A stretch of DNA of 58,976 nucleotides from positions 1-58,976 of the forward strand of contig JAYVIQ010000045.1 of NCBI GenBank assembly GCA_043770215.1. The letters are read 5' to 3'. Under the pieces are notes generated by a model. That model saw only the letters and a program-made list of their open reading frames with translations, was not told where the DNA came from and searched no databases. Positions 2,430 to 58,976 of the stretch are shown here, in pieces. The DNA is from Cytophagales bacterium. GTDB lineage: Bacteria; Bacteroidota; Bacteroidia; Cytophagales; JAAEPT01. How positions within the stretch are numbered: position 1 is the stretch's first letter; every line of letters starts with the position of its first letter. The position numbers and the translations under genes were made by a program.

Positions 2430-2599
2430 GTGAATATCCGCAATGATACCAGTTTCTGTTATTTTTTTGCGAAAAGGATCTAAGCGGAGCCCTTTTTTGC
2501 TTTTTCAGCAAAAAAAGCAAGAGCAAAGAGCCTGACCCGATAGGGTTTCGCCCAAAATCACTAATCAATTTCACTACTGGTACAATTACGGATATTCAC
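2430..2599 (+). mobile_element. MITE-like element, copy 1 (170 bp)
   Basis: The terminal inverted repeats are GTGAATATCCGCAATGATACC ... GGTACAATTACGGATATTCAC. The flanking 10-mers are AAAAGTTAAT (2420-2429) and AAAAATTAAT (2600-2609), a 9/10 target-site duplication. The body is homologous to the copies at 6118, 6964, 41419 and 56877. Confidence 0.8.
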
Positions 2600-4390: not shown

Positions 4391-6121
4391 ATGAAATTTG
4401 AAAAGTATTTTCCAATAATAGAATGGCTGCCAAGCTATAAAAAAGAAAATCTATCTAAGGATATTTATGCAGGTTTAACAGTGGGTATAATCCTAATTCC
4501 ACAAGGGATGGCATACGCCATGATAGCCGGTTTGCCTCCAGTTTTTGGGTTGTATGCAGCTTTAATTCCCCAAATTGTATATTCTATTTTTGGTACATCC
4601 AAACATATTTCTGTTGGTCCTGTAGCTATGGATTCTATGTTGGTTGCCTCTGGGGTTGGGGCTATTGCAGCAGCTGGATCTGGTCATTTTATAGAATTAG
4701 CAATTGTATTGGCTTTTCTAATTGGTTTTTTTCAGTTTGTTTTTGGTGTGCTACGTTTTGGTTTTTTGGTAAATTTCCTATCTAAACCCGTTGTTTCGGG
4801 TTTTACTTCTGCTGCTGCTTTGGTCATAGGATTAAATCAATTATCAGCAATTCTAGGGATGCCTATTTATGAGAAAAAAGCAATTTATATAGCAATAGAA
4901 GTTTTAAAAAACTTAAAATTTGTAAATTTTTGGACTGTAGGAATTTCTGCTTTTACATTGCTTTTTTTAGTGGTGATTAAAAAAAAGTCTGCTACTTTTC
5001 CAAGTGCACTTTTTGCAGTAATAATTGGTACTTTAATTGTATATTTTGGAAAACTACAGTTTAAAAAAGTAGAAATAATTGGCTTTATACCCAAAGGATT
5101 GCCAGGTTTTAGTTTTCCCAATTTAGATACTCCTTTTTTGTACGATTTATTGCCAATAGCTTTTACAATAGCTTTAATAGCATATATAGAAGCTATTTCT
5201 GTGGCAAAAAGTTTGCAAAATAAACACAGAAACGAATACAAAATAGACAATAATCAAGAAATGATAGGTTTGGGATTGTCTAACCTAATAGGTTCGTTTT
5301 TTTTAGCCTATCCTACAACTGGAGGATTTAGCAGAAGCGCTGTAAATGAACAAATGGGGGCAGTTAGTGCAATTTCTTCCTGGGTGAGTGCACTATTGGT
5401 AGGGATAACCCTTCTTTTTCTTACGCCTTTGTTTTATTATTTGCCCTTAGCTGTTTTAGGTGTGATCATTATGATTGCAGTTTTTGGGTTAATGGATTTT
5501 AGTTACCCTAACTATTTATTTAAAAACAGCATGCAGGAGTTTGTCATGCTTTGTGCTACTTTCTGCATTACCTTAAGTGTAGGAATAAAAGAAGGGCTTA
5601 TGGTTGGGGTGTTTATTTCTATAGTGGCACTTGTATATAGAACAAGTAAACCTCATATTGCCATTTTAGGGAAATTACCTTTTCTAGATGAATACAGAAA
5701 CATAGAAAGGTATAATGAAGTTGAAATTAGAAAAGATGCACTAATTTTACGGCAAGACGCTCAATTGTATTTTGCAAATGCTAATTATTTTGCTGAAAAA
5801 GTAAAAGAAGAGGTTCATAAAAAAGGGCGTGATTTGAGGGTTGTAATCATACACTGTTCTAGCATATCTAGTGTAGATACAACAGCAATACAAGAATTAG
5901 TAACCTTAATTGATGGGTTAAATACAGAAGGGGTGAGCGTTTATTTTACAGGGGTTGTAGGTCCAGTTAGAGACTTTTTTAAAAAAACTGGTTTTACTGA
6001 ACAAGTAGGAGTAAATAACTTTTTTATAGACATTGCAAGTGCTGTAAACTATTTAGAAAATGGTGCTAACACTAAAACCAAACAAATGCAGAAGAAAACA
6101 TTGCAAAATAATGTACTGTGA
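4391..6121 (+). CDS. SulP-family anion transporter with C-terminal STAS domain
   Basis: The N-terminus IIEWLPSYKKENLSKDIYAGLTVGIILIPQGMAYAMIAGLPPVFGLYA is the SulP signature region. It has multiple transmembrane segments and a C-terminal STAS-like block (ALILRQDAQLYFANANYF...VVIIHCSSISSVDTTAIQEL). The TGA stop (6119-6121) lies inside MITE copy 2. Confidence 0.9.
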   Translation: MKFEKYFPIIEWLPSYKKENLSKDIYAGLTVGIILIPQGMAYAMIAGLPPVFGLYAALIPQIVYSIFGTSKHISVGPVAMDSMLVASGVGAIAAAGSGHFIELAIVLAFLIGFFQFVFGVLRFGFLVNFLSKPVVSGFTSAAALVIGLNQLSAILGMPIYEKKAIYIAIEVLKNLKFVNFWTVGISAFTLLFLVVIKKKSATFPSALFAVIIGTLIVYFGKLQFKKVEIIGFIPKGLPGFSFPNLDTPFLYDLLPIAFTIALIAYIEAISVAKSLQNKHRNEYKIDNNQEMIGLGLSNLIGSFFLAYPTTGGFSRSAVNEQMGAVSAISSWVSALLVGITLLFLTPLFYYLPLAVLGVIIMIAVFGLMDFSYPNYLFKNSMQEFVMLCATFCITLSVGIKEGLMVGVFISIVALVYRTSKPHIAILGKLPFLDEYRNIERYNEVEIRKDALILRQDAQLYFANANYFAEKVKEEVHKKGRDLRVVIIHCSSISSVDTTAIQELVTLIDGLNTEGVSVYFTGVVGPVRDFFKKTGFTEQVGVNNFFIDIASAVNYLENGANTKTKQMQKKTLQNNVL

Positions 6122-6283
6122 ATATCCGCAATGATACTTGTGTCTATTTTTTTTGAGAAAAGGATTGAAGCAGAGTTTTTTTGCTTTTTAAGCCAAAAAA
6201 AAGCGATCATAGATTCTGATTCGATAGGGTTTTAACCTAAATCACCAATGAATACTACTATTGGTACAATTATGGATATTTAC
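6118..6283 (+). mobile_element. MITE-like element, copy 2 (166 bp, most diverged)
   Basis: The left end is GTGAATATCCGCAATGATAC and the right end is GGTACAATTATGGATATTTAC. The flanking 10-mers are ATAATGTACT (6108-6117) and ATAATATAGT (6284-6293), an 8/10 match. The internal hairpin and the CGATAGGGTTT block are retained. Confidence 0.7.
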
Positions 6284-6963: not shown

Positions 6964-7135
6964 CTGAATATCCGCAATGATACCAGTACCTATTATTTTT
7001 TTGCGAAAAGGATAGTAGTGGAGCTCTTTTTTGGCTCCTTCAGCCAAAAAAAGCGGGAACGAATAGCCTGACCCGATAGGGTTTCGTCCAAAATCACTAA
7101 TCAATTTCACTACTGGTACGATAACGGATATTCAC
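6964..7135 (+). mobile_element. MITE-like element, copy 3 (172 bp)
   Basis: The element runs CTGAATATCCGCAATGATACC ... GGTACGATAACGGATATTCAC. It is flanked by a perfect 10-bp direct repeat ATTGATAATT (6954-6963 and 7136-7145). Confidence 0.85.
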
Positions 7136-41418: not shown

Positions 41419-41588
41419 GTGAATATCCGCAATGATACCAGTACCTATTATTTTTTTGCGAAAAGGATCGAAGCGGAGCTCTTTGTTGTTTTTTCAGCAA
41501 CAAAAGCGAGAGCGTAGAGCCTGACCCGATAGGGTTTCGCCCAAAATCACTAATCAATTCCACTACTTGTACAATTACGGATATTCAC
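41419..41588 (+). mobile_element. MITE-like element, copy 4 (170 bp)
   Basis: The element runs GTGAATATCCGCAATGATACC ... TGTACAATTACGGATATTCAC. The flanking 10-mers are ATTATATTTT (41409-41418) and TTTATATTTT (41589-41598), a 9/10 match. Confidence 0.85.
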
Positions 41589-50945: not shown

Positions 50946-52691
50946 ATGAATAAAAATTTTAGAAAAATTTCAGCTTATGGATTAAGCGCATTATTTGTGT
51001 CTTTACTTGTAATTACAGCATGTAAAAAGAAAACAAAGGACCCAGAACCAGGTAATACACCTCCGGATAATAGTACTGGGCTAAATGAGTTTTTGACTGG
51101 CTTAGTCCCAATATCTACCACTGTACCAATAGATTCACCTACTCTAAATGGTGCACCTTTATCTTCTTGGGACGAGCAGACAGGAAATTATTGTACAACA
51201 AAAAAGTATAAGTTAGGTCCTGTATATAACGAAGGATTTATTTTAACGCCAAATAATGATGTTATTTATCCAGGTGCTATACTAGACGGAAACTCTATTT
51301 ATGATGGTGGGTATAGATTGTTGTCTTTACCAAGGTCTGGTGGTACAATATCTACAGACCATATAGGGGCTGTAAATGTGTCTGACAATGTAACTGAGGT
51401 AAAAAAGTCTACTATCCAGCAAGGTGTGGCTAATATTCTAAACCGGGTAGTATCTGGGAGTGCAGGAGCACAAACTAATTTCGAAATTATAGATGTTGTT
51501 AGTGAAAAACAATTGGATGTTGCATTAGGTTTTTCTCTTGGTATTGCAGAAAAAGCTAAGATAAAAGCGGGTCTCAATTTTTCTAAAGCAGAAAAAAAAT
51601 CAAGGCTTTTGGTGAAATTCCAACAAGTTTATTATACCGTAACTTTTGATGCCAAAGGAAGACCAAGCGATTATTTTCAGCCAACAGTAAATGCTACAGA
51701 TGTTTATAATACATTAAATGGCACAAAAGTATCTCCTGTATATGTGAGCAATGTAAAATATGGTAGAATTGCTTATTATTCTATTTCTAGCGAGTTGTCT
51801 CAGTCTGAACTTAGAGCTAGCTTAAACGTACAGTTAAACAAAGTAAAGTTAAAAGCCGAAGTTGATGCCACTATTACTACTAAATTAGACAATGCCAAAA
51901 CAGAGATTTCTGGTACTATTATAGGTGGCTCAGGATCTGCTGCAGTAGGTTCTATATTGGGCTTAACTCAGTTTTATGATTACATAACACAAGGTGGAGA
52001 GTATACTGCTGCTTCTCCAGGTTTGCCTATTGCCTACACACTGCGTAGATTATCAGACAATGGAGTTTTTGCTGTTCAAAAAACTACTGAATACACCGTA
52101 AGTGAGTGTAAAGATATAGTAGGGAGTTTAAATATAAGTGCAATGAGCCATTATTTTGGAGGTGATGAGGACGAAGTAAGAGGGTCTATCACTATGCAAA
52201 TTGGTTATGATGATGGATCTTTTTCTGGTGGTACAACTACCTTATGGAATTCAACAAATAGATTGTTTTTACCTCAGAATAGTACGGAAGTATCTCTTAC
52301 AAATAACCCCATAATCCCTATTAAATACAATCCAGAAAAGTTTAGTACTGCATTTATACTTATAAATGTAGATTTGTATAATTACGCAGATTGGCAAGAT
52401 CAGGGTGTAGATGCTGTAGATGTAAGTGCAGAAGCAAGAAAAGTAGCAACCTATAAAATTTACCTTAGATCTATTGCAAATACAGAATCACTTACAAACC
52501 CTTGGAGTAGCCCTGCAAACGGAACATTTAGCTTAAAAATAGATTTGCCAGAGGCAGCTACGTATTCTAACCACTGCACAGATAGAAGCAGTACTAAAGC
52601 ATGTAAAAGCTGGGCAAACAAATATTATTATAGACAAGCCTCTGTTGTAGATGCTAAATTTACAATGAACGTACAAAACCCTAAATTTTAA
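50946..52691 (+). CDS. CDC-like (thiol-activated cytolysin family D1-D3) pore-forming lipoprotein with a non-canonical C-terminal domain
   Basis: The lipobox is LVITAC (Cys26). Residues ~85-388 are collinear with perfringolysin O D1-D3: YPGAIL vs [30 protein letters not shown] vs [41 protein letters not shown] vs PLMVSNVAYGRTIYVKL; TIIGGSG vs [22 protein letters not shown] vs PAYPISYTSVFLKDN. No ECTGLAWEWWR-like undecapeptide is present, and residues ~392-581 form an unrelated domain. Confidence 0.8.
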   Translation: [581 protein letters not shown]

Positions 52692-52696
52692 TAAAT

Positions 52697-53401
52697 ATGA
52701 AAAAGAAAGTTTTAATACTTGGTACTTTAGCTTTTACCCTTGTATTTGCTTGCAAACCAGATGATCCTAAACCAGAAGACGAGAAAGTGGAAATTCAAAC
52801 TACACCAGTAAAAAATTATGGCATCATACCTGAAAATAGTGTGAGTTTAGTTTCCTTATCTCACTATAAAGGTAATGTCGAAGACAATATTAAGGGTTTT
52901 ATCACTATGCAAATTGGTTATGATGATGATGTATTTCTTGCTGGATCAAATACATTATGGAACGCTACCCAAAATTTATATTTACCTCATAAAGGAACAG
53001 AAGTAGGATTTACAAATAGTCCATTAATTTCTATATTTTATGATAAAGCAAAGTTTAATAAAGCATTTATACTAGTAACTGTAAATATATATAACTCTAA
53101 TGATTGGCAAGACCAAGGGGTAGATGATGTAGATGTAAGTGCAGAATCAAGAAAAGTAGCAACCTATAAAATTTACCTTAGATCTATTGCAAATACAGAA
53201 TCACTTACCAACCCTTGGAGTAGCCCTGCAAACGGAACATTTAGCTTAAAAATAGATTTGCCAGAGGCAGCTACGTATTCCAATCATTGCACAGACAGAA
53301 ATAAATTTTCTGGTGCATGTAAAAGCTGGGCAAACAAATATTATATTAGACAAGCCTCTACTATAGAAGCTAAATTTGCAATGAACGTACAACGACCTTA
53401 A
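52697..53401 (+). CDS. Lipoprotein made of only the C-terminal domain of the neighbouring CDC-like protein
   Basis: The lipobox is LVFAC, followed by an acidic/Pro linker ([11 protein letters not shown]). Residues ~48-234 align end to end with residues ~395-579 of the upstream protein. The last third or so is nearly identical: [56 protein letters not shown]...[10 protein letters not shown].RQAS. The gap to the upstream gene is 5 nt. Confidence 0.8.
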   Translation: [234 protein letters not shown]

Positions 53402-53413
53402 ATTTTAATAGAT

Positions 53414-54064
53414 ATGAAAAAGAAAATTATATTTCTAGGCACTTTGGCTTTTTTGCTTGCTTTCTCTTGCAAAAAAGATGAGCCTAAACCAGAGGAGAAA
53501 AAAGTGGAAACTCCGCCAGTAAAAAAAGATACCATTATACCCGTAAAATATATACAAGGTATAAGGTTGTATAATCAAGGTAATTCTGCAAGTAGCACTA
53601 CTAATTTTAGATTTTATGATATTACTACTGGCACATATTCTAATGATGTTACTAGCAATATAGATTTAGCTTATGTATATAAAAAATCTTCTACTTCTTT
53701 GCATATACTTGGTAGCTCAAAGTCTAGTTCAGTCAGAGGTTATTTTTTGGGTGTTGGTTCGTCAACAAATCAATCTCAAACAGATTTTTACAAAGTATCT
53801 TATAGTAACGTAGCAATATTTGATACCATTAAAGACTCTAAATCAGTTTCGAAACTTTTTAATAGCTATACACAATTGTCTGAATTAGATGGTGAGATAG
53901 GTAGTGATGGATTTGGCTGGGAAAACGAGCAAATACTCGCTTTTAGACTATCAAACAATGGAAAGCGTGGTTTTATAAAACTAACCTCAGACCCAACTGC
54001 ATTTCTTGAAGGAAGCGTTTTGGTAGGTGGTAGAATGGTTCTAGATATTAAAATGGAGCCTTGA
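53414..54064 (+). CDS. Lipoprotein sharing the signal and linker of the previous gene but carrying a different, unknown domain
   Basis: MKKKIIFLGTLAFLLAFSCKKDEPKPEEKKVETPPVKK parallels [39 protein letters not shown]. The rest (…NFRFYDITTGTY…GWENEQILAFRLSNNGKRGFIKL…) looks beta-rich, possibly HmuY-like, but that call is weak. The upstream gap is 12 nt. Confidence 0.7.
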   Translation: MKKKIIFLGTLAFLLAFSCKKDEPKPEEKKVETPPVKKDTIIPVKYIQGIRLYNQGNSASSTTNFRFYDITTGTYSNDVTSNIDLAYVYKKSSTSLHILGSSKSSSVRGYFLGVGSSTNQSQTDFYKVSYSNVAIFDTIKDSKSVSKLFNSYTQLSELDGEIGSDGFGWENEQILAFRLSNNGKRGFIKLTSDPTAFLEGSVLVGGRMVLDIKMEP

Positions 54065-55579: not shown

Positions 55580-56863
55580 TTATTCTACCTCTATTAAGAA
55601 ATAATTTTTCTTTCCCTTTTGCACCAATACAAATCTGTCTTGCAATAGACTACAATTGACTGCATCATTGGCATCTGTTATTTTGGTTTTGTTTATGCTT
55701 ACAGCTCCAGACTGAATCATTTTTCTTGCATCTCCATTAGAGCTAAAAATTCCAGCTTCGGTTTTAGAATGAAGCAATTCTAAGTAGTTTTGGCAATTAT
55801 TATAGACTTCTTTTTGAATTTTTATATGCGGCACACCTTCAAAAACTTCTAAAATAAGTGCTGAGTTAAGTGTTTTTAATTCTTCGGTGGCATCTTTACT
55901 AAATAATATTTGAGAAGCTTTTAAGGCATTTTCATAATCTTCTTCTGAGTGCACTCGTATAGTAACTTCTTTTGCCAATTCTTGCTGCAAAAGGCGTAAA
56001 TGCGGTTCTTCTTTGTGTTTTGTTACAATGGTATCTATCTCATCTTTAGATTTTAATGTAAAAATCTTAATGTAGTTCTCGCAGTCTACATCAGATGAGT
56101 TTATCCAATATTGGTAAAATTTATATGGCGATGTTTTAGCAGGATCTAACCAAATGTTACCACCCTCTGTTTTGCCAAACTTGGTGCCATCAGCTTTTTT
56201 AATTAAAGGTGTCGTAATAGCAAATGCCTCGCCACCAGTCATTCTACGGATAAGTTCTGTGCCTGTAGTTATGTTGCCCCATTGGTCTGACCCACCCAGT
56301 TGTATAGAGCAATCTTCGTTTTTGTACAAGTGGTAAAAATCATAGCCTTGCACCAATTGGTAAGAAAACTCTGTAAAAGACATGCCTGTTTCTAACCTAG
56401 ATTTTACAGAGTCTTTTGCCATCATGTAGTTTACAGAAATATGTTTGCCCACATCTCTAATAAAGTCTAAAAAACTAAAATCTTTAAACCAATCGTAGTT
56501 GTTGACCATTTTGGCTGAGTTTGCACCACAGTCAAAGTCTAAAAATTTTTCGAGTTGTGTTTTTACACAGTTTAGATTGTGCTGTAACACATCTGCAGAG
56601 AGTAAATTTCTTTCTTTAGATTTGCCAGATGGGTCCCCAACCATTCCAGTTGCTCCCCCTACCAACGCTAGCGGTCTGTGACCAGCTTTTTGCAAATGCA
56701 CTAAAATCATTATTTGCACCAAACTACCAATATGTAGAGAGTCGGCTGTAGGGTCAAAGCCAATATATGCGCTACAAACACCAGATGCTAACTTTTTATC
56801 TATACCGGGCATGCTATCATGTATCATGCCTCTCCAACGTAATTCATTTAAGAAATCTATCAT
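55580..56863 (-). CDS. tyrS: Tyrosine--tRNA ligase
   Basis: It is collinear with E. coli TyrRS: GFDPTADSLHIGSL (HIGH), ALVGGATGMVGDPSGK, GGSDQWGNIT, KFGKTEG (KMSKS-type) and a C-terminal S4 domain. I prefer the start at Met8 (MIDFLNELRWRG, cat 56861-56863). The track start at 56884 lies inside the repeat terminus. Confidence 0.9.
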   Translation of the reverse strand: MIDFLNELRWRGMIHDSMPGIDKKLASGVCSAYIGFDPTADSLHIGSLVQIMILVHLQKAGHRPLALVGGATGMVGDPSGKSKERNLLSADVLQHNLNCVKTQLEKFLDFDCGANSAKMVNNYDWFKDFSFLDFIRDVGKHISVNYMMAKDSVKSRLETGMSFTEFSYQLVQGYDFYHLYKNEDCSIQLGGSDQWGNITTGTELIRRMTGGEAFAITTPLIKKADGTKFGKTEGGNIWLDPAKTSPYKFYQYWINSSDVDCENYIKIFTLKSKDEIDTIVTKHKEEPHLRLLQQELAKEVTIRVHSEEDYENALKASQILFSKDATEELKTLNSALILEVFEGVPHIKIQKEVYNNCQNYLELLHSKTEAGIFSSNGDARKMIQSGAVSINKTKITDANDAVNCSLLQDRFVLVQKGKKNYFLIEVE

Positions 56864-57153
56864 TTTATTTATTTTTGTGAACATCTGCTTTTCTTATCAA
56901 ACGATTTTCTCTTTGCGAAAAGGATCGCAATGGAGCTCTTTTTTGGCTTTTTCTGCCAAAAAAAGCGGGAATGAAGAGCCTGACCCGATAGGGTTTCGCC
57001 CAAAATATATCCTACATTAGAGTATTGCGGAAGTAGGGATTTTAATGCCAGTAACTACCAACTTACCACAAAACTATAAAATGAGAGCGAAAGCTGAATA
57101 ACCAGCTTACGTCCCCATTTAGTCAATACAATTTGTGTTGGATGTGCTTTTTT

Positions 57154-57597
57154 TTATTTACATGGTAATGCTTTTTTGTAATCTATGTCAGTAAAAGTAT
57201 AAGTAAATTTATAATTTCTATCACCTATTTTTTCACTTTTGTAATTCTCAATTCCAGCTATGCCTTCCTTTGAAACTAGCAGGGTATCGCACATTTTTTT
57301 TCCATAAATAATTATTTGACCACCAGCGTAAGGTGCGACATAACTTTTTTCTGTTACTTCTTTAGACCCATCGCCCATTTGTTCGATTGTATAAGTATCT
57401 TTAGAATTAACAGTAAATATATAGGGTCCATTTTTAATCTCTATTAAAGAATCAGTATTATTAACATACACAAAAGTACCTTTTACTAAGTAATCTTTCT
57501 CTTCTTTACAACTGAAAATAGCATATATTGCTATTGCAAAAAGACTAGTTCCAAGCGTTAAACAACGCATCCAAGTTGTTTTCTGTTCGATTGTCAT
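57154..57597 (-). CDS. Small lipoprotein, paralog A (passenger gene)
   Basis: The lipobox is AIFSC. The mature part is about 115 aa and beta-rich, ending NYKFTYTFTDIDYKKALPCK. It is paralogous to the next ORF. The start may be Met10 (MRCLTLG...). Confidence 0.6.
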   Translation of the reverse strand: MTIEQKTTWMRCLTLGTSLFAIAIYAIFSCKEEKDYLVKGTFVYVNNTDSLIEIKNGPYIFTVNSKDTYTIEQMGDGSKEVTEKSYVAPYAGGQIIIYGKKMCDTLLVSKEGIAGIENYKSEKIGDRNYKFTYTFTDIDYKKALPCK

Positions 57598-57620
57598 ATA
57601 TGTTTTGGATGTGCTTTTGT

Positions 57621-58034
57621 TTATTTACACGGTAATGCTTTTTTGTAATCTATGTCTGTAAAAGTGTATGCAAATTTATAATGCCTATTGCCTATTTTTT
57701 CGTTAATATAATTAGATATACCAATAATACCCTCTCCTGTACCTATCTTATTAGTTGTATCTAGTGTATCACATTTTGTACTAGAATATATAATAAGAGC
57801 TGAGGTCATTGGAGGCACGTAATTTTTTTCTGATACATCTTTAGGTCCTTCGCCACCTTGTTCAATGATGTGAGACTGACTTGGATTTATAGTAAAATCG
57901 TATACACCGCTTTTAACCTCAATCAATGAATCAGTATTATTTGTATAAACATAAGTTCCTTTAACAGCATATTCTATATCTTTTTTACAACTAGCTGTGA
58001 TTAACAGCGCAATTAGACTAATCCCAAGCTTAGA
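57621..58034 (-). pseudogene. Small lipoprotein, paralog B, lacking a canonical start codon
   Basis: The track ORF (57621-57926) starts at a TTG in mid-domain. The frame stays open upstream as SKLGISLIALLITASCKKDIEYAVKGTYVYTNNTDS, which is a signal peptide plus lipobox aligned with paralog A. It is closed by TAG at 58035-58037, with no ATG, GTG or TTG before the lipobox. Confidence 0.5.
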
Positions 58035-58204
58035 CTAATAAATTATTCTTTACAATAAAACGGATATTCAGATTTATTTTTACAAAAATAGACATCTATA
58101 TTAAATACCAAACGCATAGTTGATAAAAATATCTAATAAGTATCTAAAAATAGTTTAATTTAGTTGACTTTGGCATTAATAATAATTTATACGGCAAAAA
58201 ATTA

Positions 58205-58927
58205 ATGAAAGAAGCAATAGACATTTTAAAGCAGCTAAGCAACAAAAATTACCAACCAGTATATTTTTTGCAAGGAGAAGAAAGTTATTTTATAGATGAA
58301 ATTTCTGATTGGATAGAAAAAAATGTACTTTCAGAAGCTGACAAGGGGTTTAACCAAACCATTTTGTACGGAAAAGAAGTGGACATAAATATCATTTTAC
58401 AAAATGCTAGGAGGTTTCCTATGATGTCTGAAAAGCAAGTTGTAATTGTAAAAGAAGCGCAAGAAATAAAAGATTTGGGAAAAGAATCTGGACAAGAAGC
58501 CTTGTTAAAATACATAGAAAATCCGCTTACAAGTACCATTTTAGTTTTTGCACACAAACACAAGAAAATAGATGGTAGAATAGCATTAGGAAAGATGCTT
58601 GCCAAAAAAACAATTTTCTTAACCACTAAGCGTCTTTATGACAACCAAGTACCAGATTGGATAAATACGTTTGTACAATCCAAAGGCTATAAAATAAATG
58701 CCAAAGCGAGTAATTTGGTAGCTTCCTCTGTAGGGACTAATCTTGGCAATGTAGCCAATGAACTAAGCAAAATATTTATTAACCTAAAAAATGGTGAAGA
58801 AATAAATGAACTCCATGTAGAAAAAAACATAGGAGTTAGTAAAGATTACAATGTTTTTGAGCTTAATAATGCCATACTTACAAAACGTATTAAATATGTT
58901 AGAAACTACCACCACCAATGGACCTGA
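58205..58927 (+). CDS. holA: DNA polymerase III delta subunit, reading frame disrupted after codon ~225
   Basis: YQPVYFLQGEESYFIDEISDWIEKNVLSEADKGFNQTILYGKEV...MMSEKQVVIVKEAQ...DYNVFEL is the canonical HolA pattern. After ...NNAIL(TK) the frame reads RIKYVRNYHHQWT* and stops well short of the >300 aa usual for HolA. Confidence 0.8.
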   Translation: MKEAIDILKQLSNKNYQPVYFLQGEESYFIDEISDWIEKNVLSEADKGFNQTILYGKEVDINIILQNARRFPMMSEKQVVIVKEAQEIKDLGKESGQEALLKYIENPLTSTILVFAHKHKKIDGRIALGKMLAKKTIFLTTKRLYDNQVPDWINTFVQSKGYKINAKASNLVASSVGTNLGNVANELSKIFINLKNGEEINELHVEKNIGVSKDYNVFELNNAILTKRIKYVRNYHHQWT

Positions 58928-58976
58928 TTTTTGATTTTTATCAAAGTATTGAATGATTTTATTGGCTTTAAGTATG
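58881..58976 (-). other. HolA-like coding segment lying on the opposite strand at the window edge
   Basis: The reverse complement of the last 96 nt translates as ILKANKIIQYFDKNQKSGPLVVVVSNIFNTF. This is the segment expected to follow FELxxAI in HolA. Confidence 0.6.

What the first reader, a model, noticed from the sequence alone, without database searches (positions are those of the whole stretch)
56867..58081. A cargo-carrying derivative of the MITE: a 1195-bp element with a perfect 10-bp target duplication and two lipoprotein genes, inserted between tyrS and holA
At 56877 the MITE left end begins (GTGAACATCTGC…), followed by about 130 bp of MITE body up to …GGGTTTCGCCCAAAAT at about 57006. 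Homology then stops and resumes only at 58051-58071 (TACAATAAAACGGATATTCAG, the MITE right end). The two ends are flanked by identical 10-mers ATTTATTTTT (56867-56876 and 58072-58081), so they belong to a single insertion event. The roughly 1.04 kb between them replaces about 22 nt of the canonical body. It carries two tandem paralogous small-lipoprotein genes (57154-57597 and 57621-58034) and no transposase. This is the architecture of a mobile insertion cassette, a non-autonomous element that moves passenger genes. It links an abundant MITE family to gene mobilisation, and the passengers have unknown function.
Basis: seen in the sequence. Interest (0 to 1): 0.75.

Follow-up and report, generated by a model that had tools for sequence, protein, structure and literature searches.

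The report
Gene-carrying MITE inserted in tyrS leader
A small non-autonomous transposon carrying about 1 kb of borrowed lipoprotein-gene DNA sits between the promoter and start codon of the essential tyrS gene; this is a clear but ordinary example of a known kind of element, the mobile insertion cassette.

Summary
A 1195-bp segment (56877-58071) starts with a MITE left end plus about 130 nt of MITE body and ends with a MITE right terminus. It is flanked by identical 10-mers, ATTTATTTTT. The four canonical 166-172-bp copies in the window also have roughly 10-bp duplications. Three related metagenomic genomes (HolA 69-81% identical) have tyrS and holA divergently adjacent, separated by 119-196 nt, with no MITE and no lipoprotein gene. 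Deleting the element and one 10-mer restores a spacer that is colinear with theirs. So this is one insertion and the lipoprotein genes are not native here.

- Only one passenger gene is intact. The second lacks a start codon.
- The cargo is a promoterless internal fragment of a "large lipoprotein + tandem small lipoproteins" array.
- The MITE may be complete (168 nt) and simply split by the insert.
- The MITE core is the Rfam Flavo-1 motif.
- The insertion lies between the conserved tyrS -7 promoter box and the tyrS ATG. The cargo has the same orientation as tyrS and no terminator, so cargo and tyrS are probably co-transcribed.

Not shown: that the cargo-bearing element ever moved as a unit. 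Only one copy is known, and capture in place by a resident MITE is not excluded. No transposase partner was found. It is a known kind of element, of modest interest.

The parts
56867..56876 (.). Left copy of the 10-bp target-site duplication, ATTTATTTTT.
   Evidence: Identical to 58072-58081. The relatives have a single copy of this stretch.
56877..57006 (+). MITE left part. It comprises the terminal 12 nt (10/12 to canonical), a divergent inner arm at 56889-56911 (9/24), and the conserved core, which includes the Flavo-1 hairpin at 56910-56989.
57007..57084 (-). 78 nt of unknown origin. It is probably the distal 3' flank of the captured fragment. It contains a TAGTTTTG motif (57076-57069, minus strand) that could be an internal promoter.
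   Evidence: No significant similarity to the MITE: 797 of 1000 shuffles score as well. Motif scan.
57085..57153 (-). Native 3' flank of passenger gene 1. It is conserved with the flank of a homologue that lies in a non-MITE context (L004).
57154..57597 (-). lip1, an intact 147-aa small lipoprotein. It has a signal helix, a Cys30 lipobox and an eight-strand beta sandwich.
57621..58034 (-). lip2', a paralogue of the other ancestral subtype. The reading frame is open for 137 codons, but ATT replaces the start ATG (58043-58041) and a TAG lies at 58037-58035. It is probably a pseudogene or is truncated at its 5' end.
58034..58071 (+). MITE right part. 58051-58071 is certain (exact terminal 11-mer at 58060-58070). 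58034-58050 is probably MITE interior (13/19), so the junction with the cargo is ambiguous within 58029-58050.
58072..58081 (.). Right copy of the 10-bp target-site duplication, ATTTATTTTT.
58083..58112 (-). Native tyrS promoter of the Bacteroidota type: -33 TTTG (58112-58109), an 18-nt spacer, and -7 TATTTTTG (58090-58083). It is now separated from tyrS by the element.
   Evidence: The -7 box is conserved in L151, L153 and L154, 16 nt before the tyrS ATG (my count from the sequences printed).
55580..56863 (-). tyrS (427 aa). Its start codon lies 3 nt from the left duplication. The ATG at 56884, inside the MITE end, gives an artefactual 434-aa ORF.
58205..58881 (+). holA 5' part. The true gene encodes 340 aa. 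The window tail from about 58882 is an inverted assembly artefact.

Best explanation
This is a mobile-insertion-cassette-like derivative of a lineage-specific, roughly 170-bp MITE whose core is the Flavo-1 hairpin. Steps 1 to 3 are inferred. (1) A contiguous fragment of about 1.03 kb became lodged inside a MITE copy, between ...CCCAAAAT and (C)ACTAAT.... The fragment came from the middle of a chromosomal array of the form 'large lipoprotein gene followed by tandem small lipoprotein genes'. It comprises the 5'-truncated lip2, the intact lip1 and about 150 nt of 3' flank. (2) A transposase supplied in trans recognised the two MITE termini. (3) That transposase integrated the whole 1195-bp unit through a 10-bp staggered cut in an AT-rich target. 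Shown: the target lies between the conserved -7 box of the tyrS promoter and the tyrS start codon; the element is absent from the orthologous site in three relatives; and it carries no transposase. Inferred consequence: the cargo is promoterless, has the same orientation as tyrS, and contains no terminator-like hairpin. The tyrS promoter therefore probably transcribes lip2'-lip1-(antisense Flavo-1)-tyrS as one RNA. This would express lip1 and keep the essential tyrS alive. An internal promoter, for example TAGTTTTG at 57076-57069, may contribute.
For: Termini and duplication. The family makes 10-bp duplications. Empty orthologous sites, colinear after removing the element and one 10-mer. The passenger genes are foreign to this locus; their native context is chromosomal, without a MITE or Flavo-1 flanking the gene, immediately downstream of a 460-500-aa lipoprotein gene in arrays of 1-6 copies. 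No transposase in the element or among 40 window ORFs. Promoter: TTTG-N18-TATTTTTG lies 14 nt before the ATG in the reconstructed site, and the -7 box is conserved in all three relatives. Of 25 other Bacteroidota tyrS loci, 21 have TAnnTTTG within 80 nt upstream, mostly 14-26 nt from the ATG. No terminator-like site on either strand. The element is identical in three independent assemblies, so it is not an assembly chimera. The inner arms of this copy resemble each other about as well as, or better than, they resemble canonical arms (score 9 between its own two arms, against 2-7 for its left arm and 3-12 for its right arm versus canonical arms). This hints at a distinct subfamily.
Against: Only one cargo-bearing copy is known. 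None of the 35 related lipoprotein loci has MITE ends flanking the gene, although L109 has one Flavo-1 copy about 2.8 kb upstream. Contigs assemble straight through the cargo, which suggests it is single-copy. No autonomous IS with these termini was found; the canonical left terminus and the variant arm have no exact match in 185,579 species genomes, and a 17-nt core pattern gave only unrelated matches plus one partial Flavo-1-like sequence. The duplication cannot distinguish transposition of the loaded element from loading of a MITE that was already here. There are no expression data. The left inner arm is unlike the canonical TIR (9/24), so recognition by the transposase is uncertain.
Confidence: 0.58

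Rival explanations
1. Capture in place. An ordinary MITE of about 170 bp transposed into the tyrS leader and made the 10-bp duplication. Later a fragment of about 1.03 kb from a lipoprotein array was inserted into that resident copy, by illegitimate or microhomology-mediated recombination or by template switching during repair. Under this view the loaded element has never transposed.
For: After splicing out 57007-58033, the MITE is full length (168 nt against 166-172), with 13/19 identity across 58034-58050. This looks like an intact MITE that was simply interrupted. Only one cargo copy is known. Short similarities occur near the junctions, with CCCAA at 56999-57003 and 58023-58027, read directly.
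Against: It needs a rare insertion of non-mobile DNA that happens to hit one 170-bp copy, in the right orientation and without a terminator, upstream of an essential gene. The same rare capture event is required under the best explanation as well, so this rival is not simpler. The left inner arm of this copy differs sharply from canonical copies (9/24 against 83/96 in the core). That suggests a separate element lineage rather than a typical resident copy.
Confidence: 0.32
2. Two unrelated partial MITE fragments happen to bracket lipoprotein genes that are native to this locus, and the identical 10-mers are a coincidence of AT-rich sequence.
For: The 10-mer is of low complexity. The right-end homology is short, with 21 nt certain.
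Against: Three relatives have neither the genes nor the MITE at the orthologous site, and the flanks rejoin colinearly once one 10-mer is removed. By my calculation from base composition, the chance of a 10/10 match at terminus-defined positions is about 1e-5. The terminal 11-mer occurs only at MITE termini in the window. Homologues of the passenger genes lie in a quite different conserved context.
Confidence: 0.03
3. Metagenome assembly chimera: the contig wrongly joins MITE copies from different loci around an unrelated lipoprotein fragment.
For: The window is a metagenomic contig with a demonstrable artefact at its 3' end. MITE repeats are classic points of misjoining.
Against: The same junctions are found, with no differences across the element, in three independently assembled contigs from different samples. 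These are ERZ28573518, ERZ27315213 and SRR23617294. Two of them run from tyrS through the element into holA and beyond.
Confidence: 0.02

Closest known systems
Mobile insertion cassettes (MICs), such as the qnrS2 and qnrD cassettes and the Tn3-family MICs of Xanthomonas; also MIC231 of the IS231 family in Bacillus cereus (from my own knowledge)
   Same: Short terminal inverted repeats of a transposon family flank passenger DNA. There is no transposase, and the flanking target-site duplication has the family's length.
   Different: No cognate autonomous IS is known and only one copy is known. The passenger is a promoterless gene fragment with one intact ORF, not a complete adaptive gene. The backbone is a MITE carrying a structured RNA motif (Flavo-1).
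Canonical MITE copies of the same family in this window (2430-2599, 6118-6283, 6964-7135, 41419-41588)
   Same: They share the terminal sequence, the Flavo-1 core (83/96), the 10-bp AT-rich duplications and the + orientation.
   Different: The canonical copies are 166-172 bp with no insert. Their inner inverted repeats (CAATGATACCAGT) are replaced in this copy's left arm.
Flavo-1 RNA motif (Rfam RF01705; Weinberg et al. 2010, PMC2864571)
   Same: The core at 56910-56989 scores 52.3 bits against a gathering threshold of 42.
   Different: Flavo-1 is catalogued as a candidate sRNA of unknown function. Here it is the interior of a transposable element with TIRs and duplications. A Flavo-1 copy in another genome (L109) lacks these TIRs.
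Pack-MULE / transduplication in plants (analogy, from my own knowledge)
   Same: A non-autonomous element carries a captured fragment of host genes between its ends.
   Different: It involves a different transposon superfamily, a different domain of life and a different capture mechanism. This is an analogy only.

Membership tests
Mobile insertion cassette (MIC) | Both termini are related to the inverted repeats of a transposable-element family | tested here: met
   The left terminus matches 10/12 and is followed by the core at 83/96. The right terminus has the exact 11-mer that is found only at MITE termini, 8 observed against 0.51 expected.
Mobile insertion cassette (MIC) | Flanked by a target-site duplication of the family's characteristic length | tested here: met
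   A 10/10 match here. The canonical copies match at 8-10 of 10 positions over 10 bp. The relatives have a single copy of the site.
Mobile insertion cassette (MIC) | No transposase gene inside | tested here: met
   The only ORFs of 100 aa or more are lip1 and lip2', and neither has a Pfam hit.
Mobile insertion cassette (MIC) | Carries passenger gene(s) unrelated to transposition | tested here: met
   lip1 is intact and lip2' is damaged. The family has 162 members, all hypothetical lipoproteins.
Mobile insertion cassette (MIC) | Evidence that the loaded unit is mobilised in trans, from copies at more than one site or from experiment | tested here: not met
   One locus only. No MITE ends flank the gene at any of 35 homologous loci (L109 has a Flavo-1 copy about 2.8 kb away), and there are no exact matches of the variant arm. 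The rest of the source genome could not be searched.
Mobile insertion cassette (MIC) | A cognate autonomous IS with the same termini exists | tested here: inconclusive
   There is no transposase among 40 ORFs of the window, and the canonical terminus is absent from 185,579 species genomes. The source genome beyond this contig is not available.
MITE family of this window | Terminal inverted repeats of about 24 nt, a size of about 170 bp, a 10-bp duplication and a Flavo-1 core | tested here: met
   After splicing out 57007-58033 the element is 168 nt. The termini, core and duplication are present. The inner left arm is divergent (9/24).
Flavo-1 RNA (RF01705) | Score above the Rfam gathering threshold | tested here: met
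   52.3 bits against a threshold of 42 at 56910-56989.
Bacterial lipoprotein (passenger lip1) | N-terminal signal peptide ending in a lipobox cysteine | tested here: inconclusive
   The sequence reads MRCLTLGTSLFAIAIYAIFS-C30. Cys30 is invariant in 80 homologues and the N-terminal helix is modelled. No dedicated lipoprotein predictor was available.

The most novel reading that the evidence does not exclude
The Flavo-1 'sRNA' motif, of unknown function since 2010, is in this lineage the hairpin core of an active family of non-autonomous transposons. That family can pick up promoterless host gene fragments and drop them into the leader of an essential housekeeping gene. The result is a new operon (lip-tyrS) driven by the captured promoter. 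If this is general, many Flavo-1 hits would be mobile-element DNA rather than regulatory RNAs, and elements of this type would be a route for operon rewiring in Bacteroidota.
Probability: 0.25. Interest if true: 0.6.

Novelty: new member of a known kind. Interest (0 to 1): 0.38.

Why it matters
This is a clean natural example, with an identified empty site, of a MITE-derived cassette carrying host DNA in an uncultured member of the Bacteroidota. It has two features of wider use. First, it ties the orphan Rfam motif Flavo-1 to a transposable element with inverted repeats and 10-bp duplications. That could explain why Flavo-1 hits lie in either orientation relative to transcripts (PMC9723704). 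Second, the element sits between the -7 box and the start codon of an essential aminoacyl-tRNA synthetase gene. Its survival therefore implies read-through or an outward-facing promoter, which is directly testable by RNA-seq. The element class itself (MIC) is well known and the passenger's function is unknown, so the general significance is modest.

Tried and rejected
1. I suspected that 57007-57084 hides a decayed second MITE end, based on an ATTGCGGA 8-mer and a CCAGTA-like stretch. This is rejected, because 797 of 1000 shuffles score as well.
2. I looked for an empty site in GTDB species genomes. The closest TyrS is only 69% identical, and only Marivirga shares the tyrS<->holA arrangement. 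That was uninformative, so I turned to metagenomic relatives found through HolA.
3. Exact look-ups of TyrS (427 and 434 aa) found nothing. Contigs from other samples all break at 56371-56426, where the sequence contains a 10-nt inverted repeat that I suspect is the cause, so no strain lacking the insert could be recovered.
4. I searched for other family members or an autonomous partner. The canonical terminus, the variant left arm and a 17-nt core pattern gave no real family member in 185,579 genomes.
5. I searched for a second cargo copy through the passenger protein, in JGI metagenomes and GTDB genomes. This returned 35 loci, none with MITE ends.
6. I tried to infer the passenger's function. 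There is no Pfam hit. The AlphaFold2 model is confident (pLDDT 88), but Foldseek against the PDB gave nothing below E=0.01, with TM no higher than 0.34 and only weak aegerolysin/actinoporin-like beta-sandwich resemblance. The conserved neighbour of about 480 aa has no Pfam hit either.
7. The sigma-70 promoter scan is uninformative for Bacteroidota, with 10 hits against 8.9 expected. I replaced it with a scan for the TAnnTTTG motif.
8. An integron-cassette-like reading (promoterless ORFs plus a hairpin site) was considered. I dropped it because the TIRs and the 10-bp duplication indicate transposition.

Full report
OBSERVATION

ATTTATTTTT occurs at 56867-56876 and again at 58072-58081, and the segment between them is 1195 bp. 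BLAST of this segment against the window finds window 56904-57006 at 84-88% identity to three other loci, and more weakly to a fourth.

Those loci are four compact elements: A 2430-2599, B 6118-6283, C 6964-7135 and D 41419-41588. They are 166-172 bp long, with terminal inverted repeats GTGAATATCCGCAATGATACCAGT / ACTGGTACAATTACGGATATTCAC. The 10-mers flanking them match at 9, 8, 10 and 9 of 10 positions. So this is a real MITE-like family that makes 10-bp target duplications in AT-rich DNA.

The left terminus of the 1195-bp element matches the canonical terminus at 10/12 positions and lies at the correct distance from the core. Its right terminus carries the exact 11-mer ACGGATATTCA. With up to 1 mismatch, that 11-mer occurs 8 times in the window, every time at a MITE terminus, against 0.51 expected by chance. 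By my own calculation from base composition, a perfect 10/10 match at positions fixed by the termini has a chance probability of about 1e-5.

WHAT THE MITE IS

The conserved core of all well-preserved copies, including 56910-56989, is a full-length hit to Rfam RF01705, the Flavo-1 RNA, at 46.7-57.5 bits against a gathering score of 42. Flavo-1 is a computationally defined motif of unknown function (PMC2864571). In Flavobacterium psychrophilum its hits lie "indistinctly in sense or antisense" of transcribed regions (PMC9723704). In this lineage the motif is the interior of a transposable element.

The canonical left terminus has no exact match in 185,579 species genomes. A 17-nt core pattern gave only unrelated matches plus one partial Flavo-1-like sequence in Aureivirga, with no family member among them. 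A bona fide Flavo-1 copy in an unrelated metagenome (L109) lacks these inverted repeats. The TIR-bearing version therefore looks lineage-specific.

IS IT ONE INSERTION? THE EMPTY SITE

The closest TyrS in the GTDB species genomes is only 69% identical, and there only Marivirga shares the divergent tyrS-holA arrangement. I therefore searched with HolA. I found metagenomic relatives at 80-81% (P0123, P0122) and 69% (P0126) HolA identity and fetched their contigs.

In all three relatives tyrS and holA are divergently adjacent, with spacers of 196, 143 and 119 nt. Downstream of holA, an MFS transporter gene follows in L151/L152 and L154 and an ABC-transporter gene after it, as in the contigs that extend the window; L153 ends inside the gene after holA. 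None of the relatives contains a MITE, a Flavo-1 hit at the Rfam gathering score, or a lipoprotein homologue.

Removing 56877-58071 and one 10-mer from the window leaves a 136-nt spacer that aligns colinearly with theirs:
- window: CAT-TTTATTTA--TTTTT-ACAAAAATAGAC...
- L151: CAT-TTTGTTCAATTTTTT-ACAAAAATATAC...

The lipoprotein genes are not native to this locus.

An assembly chimera is excluded. Three independently assembled contigs from different samples carry the identical element and junctions.

THE CARGO

lip1 (57154-57597, minus strand, 147 aa) is intact.

lip2 (57621-58034) is open for 137 codons, but it has ATT where its paralogues have the start ATG (58043-58041) and an in-frame TAG at 58037-58035. 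It is therefore damaged or truncated at its 5' end.

The two are not a recent duplicate. They belong to two old subtypes of the family, one with and one without a 5-residue insertion.

The family is small. A single-sequence search found 9 proteins and a profile search found 162, among 5.8 billion. All are "hypothetical" with no Pfam domain, and named members come from Pedobacter. AlphaFold2 gives a confident model (pLDDT 88) with an N-terminal signal helix and an eight-strand beta sandwich. Three cysteines are invariant: Cys30 of the lipobox, Cys103 and Cys146. Foldseek against the PDB finds nothing convincing, with a best E-value of 0.012 and TM no higher than 0.34.

In most loci long enough to show the upstream gene (21 of the 23 JGI metagenome loci and 8 of the 12 GTDB genome loci), a ~460-500-aa lipoprotein gene that also lacks a Pfam hit lies upstream of the small genes. 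The small genes then follow, singly or in tandem arrays of up to six. No MITE or Flavo-1 flanks the gene in any of these loci.

The window contains no homologue of the large partner beyond a 22-codon remnant that overlaps the 5' end of lip1. Homology between the 3' flank of lip1 and that of a homologue in a non-MITE context extends to 57085. The remaining 78 nt (57007-57084) match nothing, and their faint TIR-like bits are not significant.

The cargo is therefore best read as one contiguous, promoterless fragment of about 1.03 kb, cut out of the middle of such an array. Its G+C content (31%) equals that of the genome (32%).

THE INTERNAL JUNCTIONS

The left junction is sharp. MITE homology ends at ...GGGTTTCGCCCAAAAT (57006).

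The right junction is ambiguous. However, 58034-58050 aligns 13/19 with the canonical interior (C)ACTAATCAATTTCAC... In that case the spliced element is 168 nt against 166-172 for canonical copies. That would be a complete MITE simply interrupted by 1027 nt.

The left inner arm (56889-56911) is unlike canonical copies (9/24, against 83/96 in the core). This hints that the copy belongs to a separate sub-lineage.

WHERE IT LANDED AND WHAT THAT IMPLIES

On the tyrS-sense strand, a Bacteroidota-type promoter lies directly outside the right duplication. It reads TTTG-N18-TATTTTTG, with the -33 at 58112-58109 and the -7 at 58090-58083. In the reconstructed empty site the -7 box ends 14 nt before the tyrS ATG. 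The same TATTTTTG is conserved 16 nt before the ATG in all three relatives (my count from the sequences printed).

Of 25 other Bacteroidota tyrS loci, 21 have a TAnnTTTG within 80 nt upstream, mostly 14-26 nt from the ATG. The window-wide frequency of the motif predicts about 9% by chance in 80 nt (my calculation).

The element therefore sits inside the very short tyrS leader. The promoter now points into the right end of the element. Both lipoprotein reading frames have the orientation of tyrS. No terminator-like hairpin occurs on either strand.

The most economical inference is a read-through transcript, lip2'-lip1-(antisense Flavo-1)-tyrS, from the tyrS promoter. This would express the promoterless lip1 and preserve expression of an essential gene. 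An internal -7-like motif (TAGTTTTG, 57076-57069) is an alternative source of tyrS transcription. None of this has been tested experimentally.

MECHANISM AND RIVALS

The best explanation (0.58) is a MIC-like unit, a MITE loaded with host DNA, integrated as a whole by a trans-acting transposase.

The main rival (0.32) is that a plain MITE inserted here first and was loaded in place. The duplication and the empty sites are equally compatible with both. What would separate them is a second loaded copy elsewhere, or a MITE-only allele at this site in a sister strain. I found neither. No loaded copy occurs at 35 homologous loci. The variant arm has no match in GTDB genomes. No polymorphism was seen in the available assemblies, whose contigs all break at 56371-56426 in tyrS, where I note a 10-nt inverted repeat.

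No transposase is present in the element or among 40 ORFs of the window.

The rivals of coincidental fragments (0.03) and assembly chimera (0.02) are effectively excluded.

COMPARISON WITH KNOWN SYSTEMS

The architecture is that of a mobile insertion cassette, a well-documented class. Examples in the literature are the qnrS2 and qnrD cassettes and the Tn3-family MICs of Xanthomonas, and MIC231 of Bacillus cereus (from my own knowledge).

Four defining features are met: family termini, a family-length duplication, no transposase and passenger DNA. Evidence of mobilisation is not met. A cognate IS could not be assessed.

It differs from the classic examples in three ways. It carries a promoterless operon fragment rather than a complete adaptive gene. 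It is built on a MITE with a Flavo-1 core. It sits in the leader of an essential gene.

VERDICT

This is a new member of a known kind. Interest is 0.38.

Noticed in passing
window 2464-2541, 6998-7077, 41453-41530, 56910-56989: The core of every well-preserved MITE copy is a full-length hit to the Rfam Flavo-1 RNA (RF01705, 46.7-57.5 bits). In this lineage the 'sRNA' motif lies inside a transposable element with 24-nt inverted repeats and 10-bp duplications. All five copies in the window are in the + orientation. I found no paper linking Flavo-1 to MITEs.
   Followed up: partly
window 58882-58976: The last ~95 bases of the window are the reverse complement of the true downstream holA sequence, an inverted artefact at the contig end. 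As a result holA reads as a 240-aa ORF ending ...KYVRNYHHQWT*, whereas independent contigs give a 340-aa HolA.
   Followed up: yes
window 56371-56426 (inside tyrS): Contigs from four independent assemblies all end here, some with scrambled ends. The region contains a 10-nt perfect inverted repeat, CTCTGTAAAA...TTTTACAGAG, which I suspect is what breaks de Bruijn assemblies.
   Followed up: partly
window 56877-56884: This copy's MITE terminus is GTGAACAT, where the canonical form is GTGAATAT. It creates an ATG in frame with tyrS and adds 7 codons (MFTKINK). ORF lists and gene callers therefore alternate between a 434-aa and a 427-aa TyrS. Homologues support the 427-aa start at 56863.
   Followed up: partly
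window 6118-6121: MITE copy B begins at 6118, and its terminal GTGA supplies the TGA stop codon (6119-6121) of the SulP/STAS sulfate-permease ORF 4391-6121. The insertion therefore replaced the extreme 3' end of that gene.
   Followed up: no
window 50946-54064: A 581-aa protein with a thiol-activated (cholesterol-dependent) cytolysin domain (PF01289, E=7e-37) is followed by two tandem paralogous genes with no Pfam hit (52697-53401 and 53414-54064). These are 75-87% identical to each other at the DNA level over long stretches.
   Followed up: no
L093-L100, L156 and other loci: The small-lipoprotein family usually lies downstream of an uncharacterised lipoprotein gene of about 480 aa, in tandem arrays of up to six copies. 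Each duplicated unit carries a remnant of about 50 codons from the 3' end of the large gene, which overlaps the small gene's 5' end in another reading frame.
   Followed up: partly
window 56870-56877 (+ strand): The left duplication plus the first base of the MITE forms TATTTTTG, a Bacteroidota -7 promoter motif. It points into the element in the sense direction of Flavo-1. This may be chance.
   Followed up: no
window 57505-57510 (lip1 residues 30-35): The mature N-terminus of lip1 would be C-K-E-E-K-D. This resembles the K-(D/E)2 lipoprotein surface-export signal described for Bacteroidota (recalled from memory, not checked here). The family consensus is CKKxxDY, so this feature is specific to lip1.
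   Followed up: no
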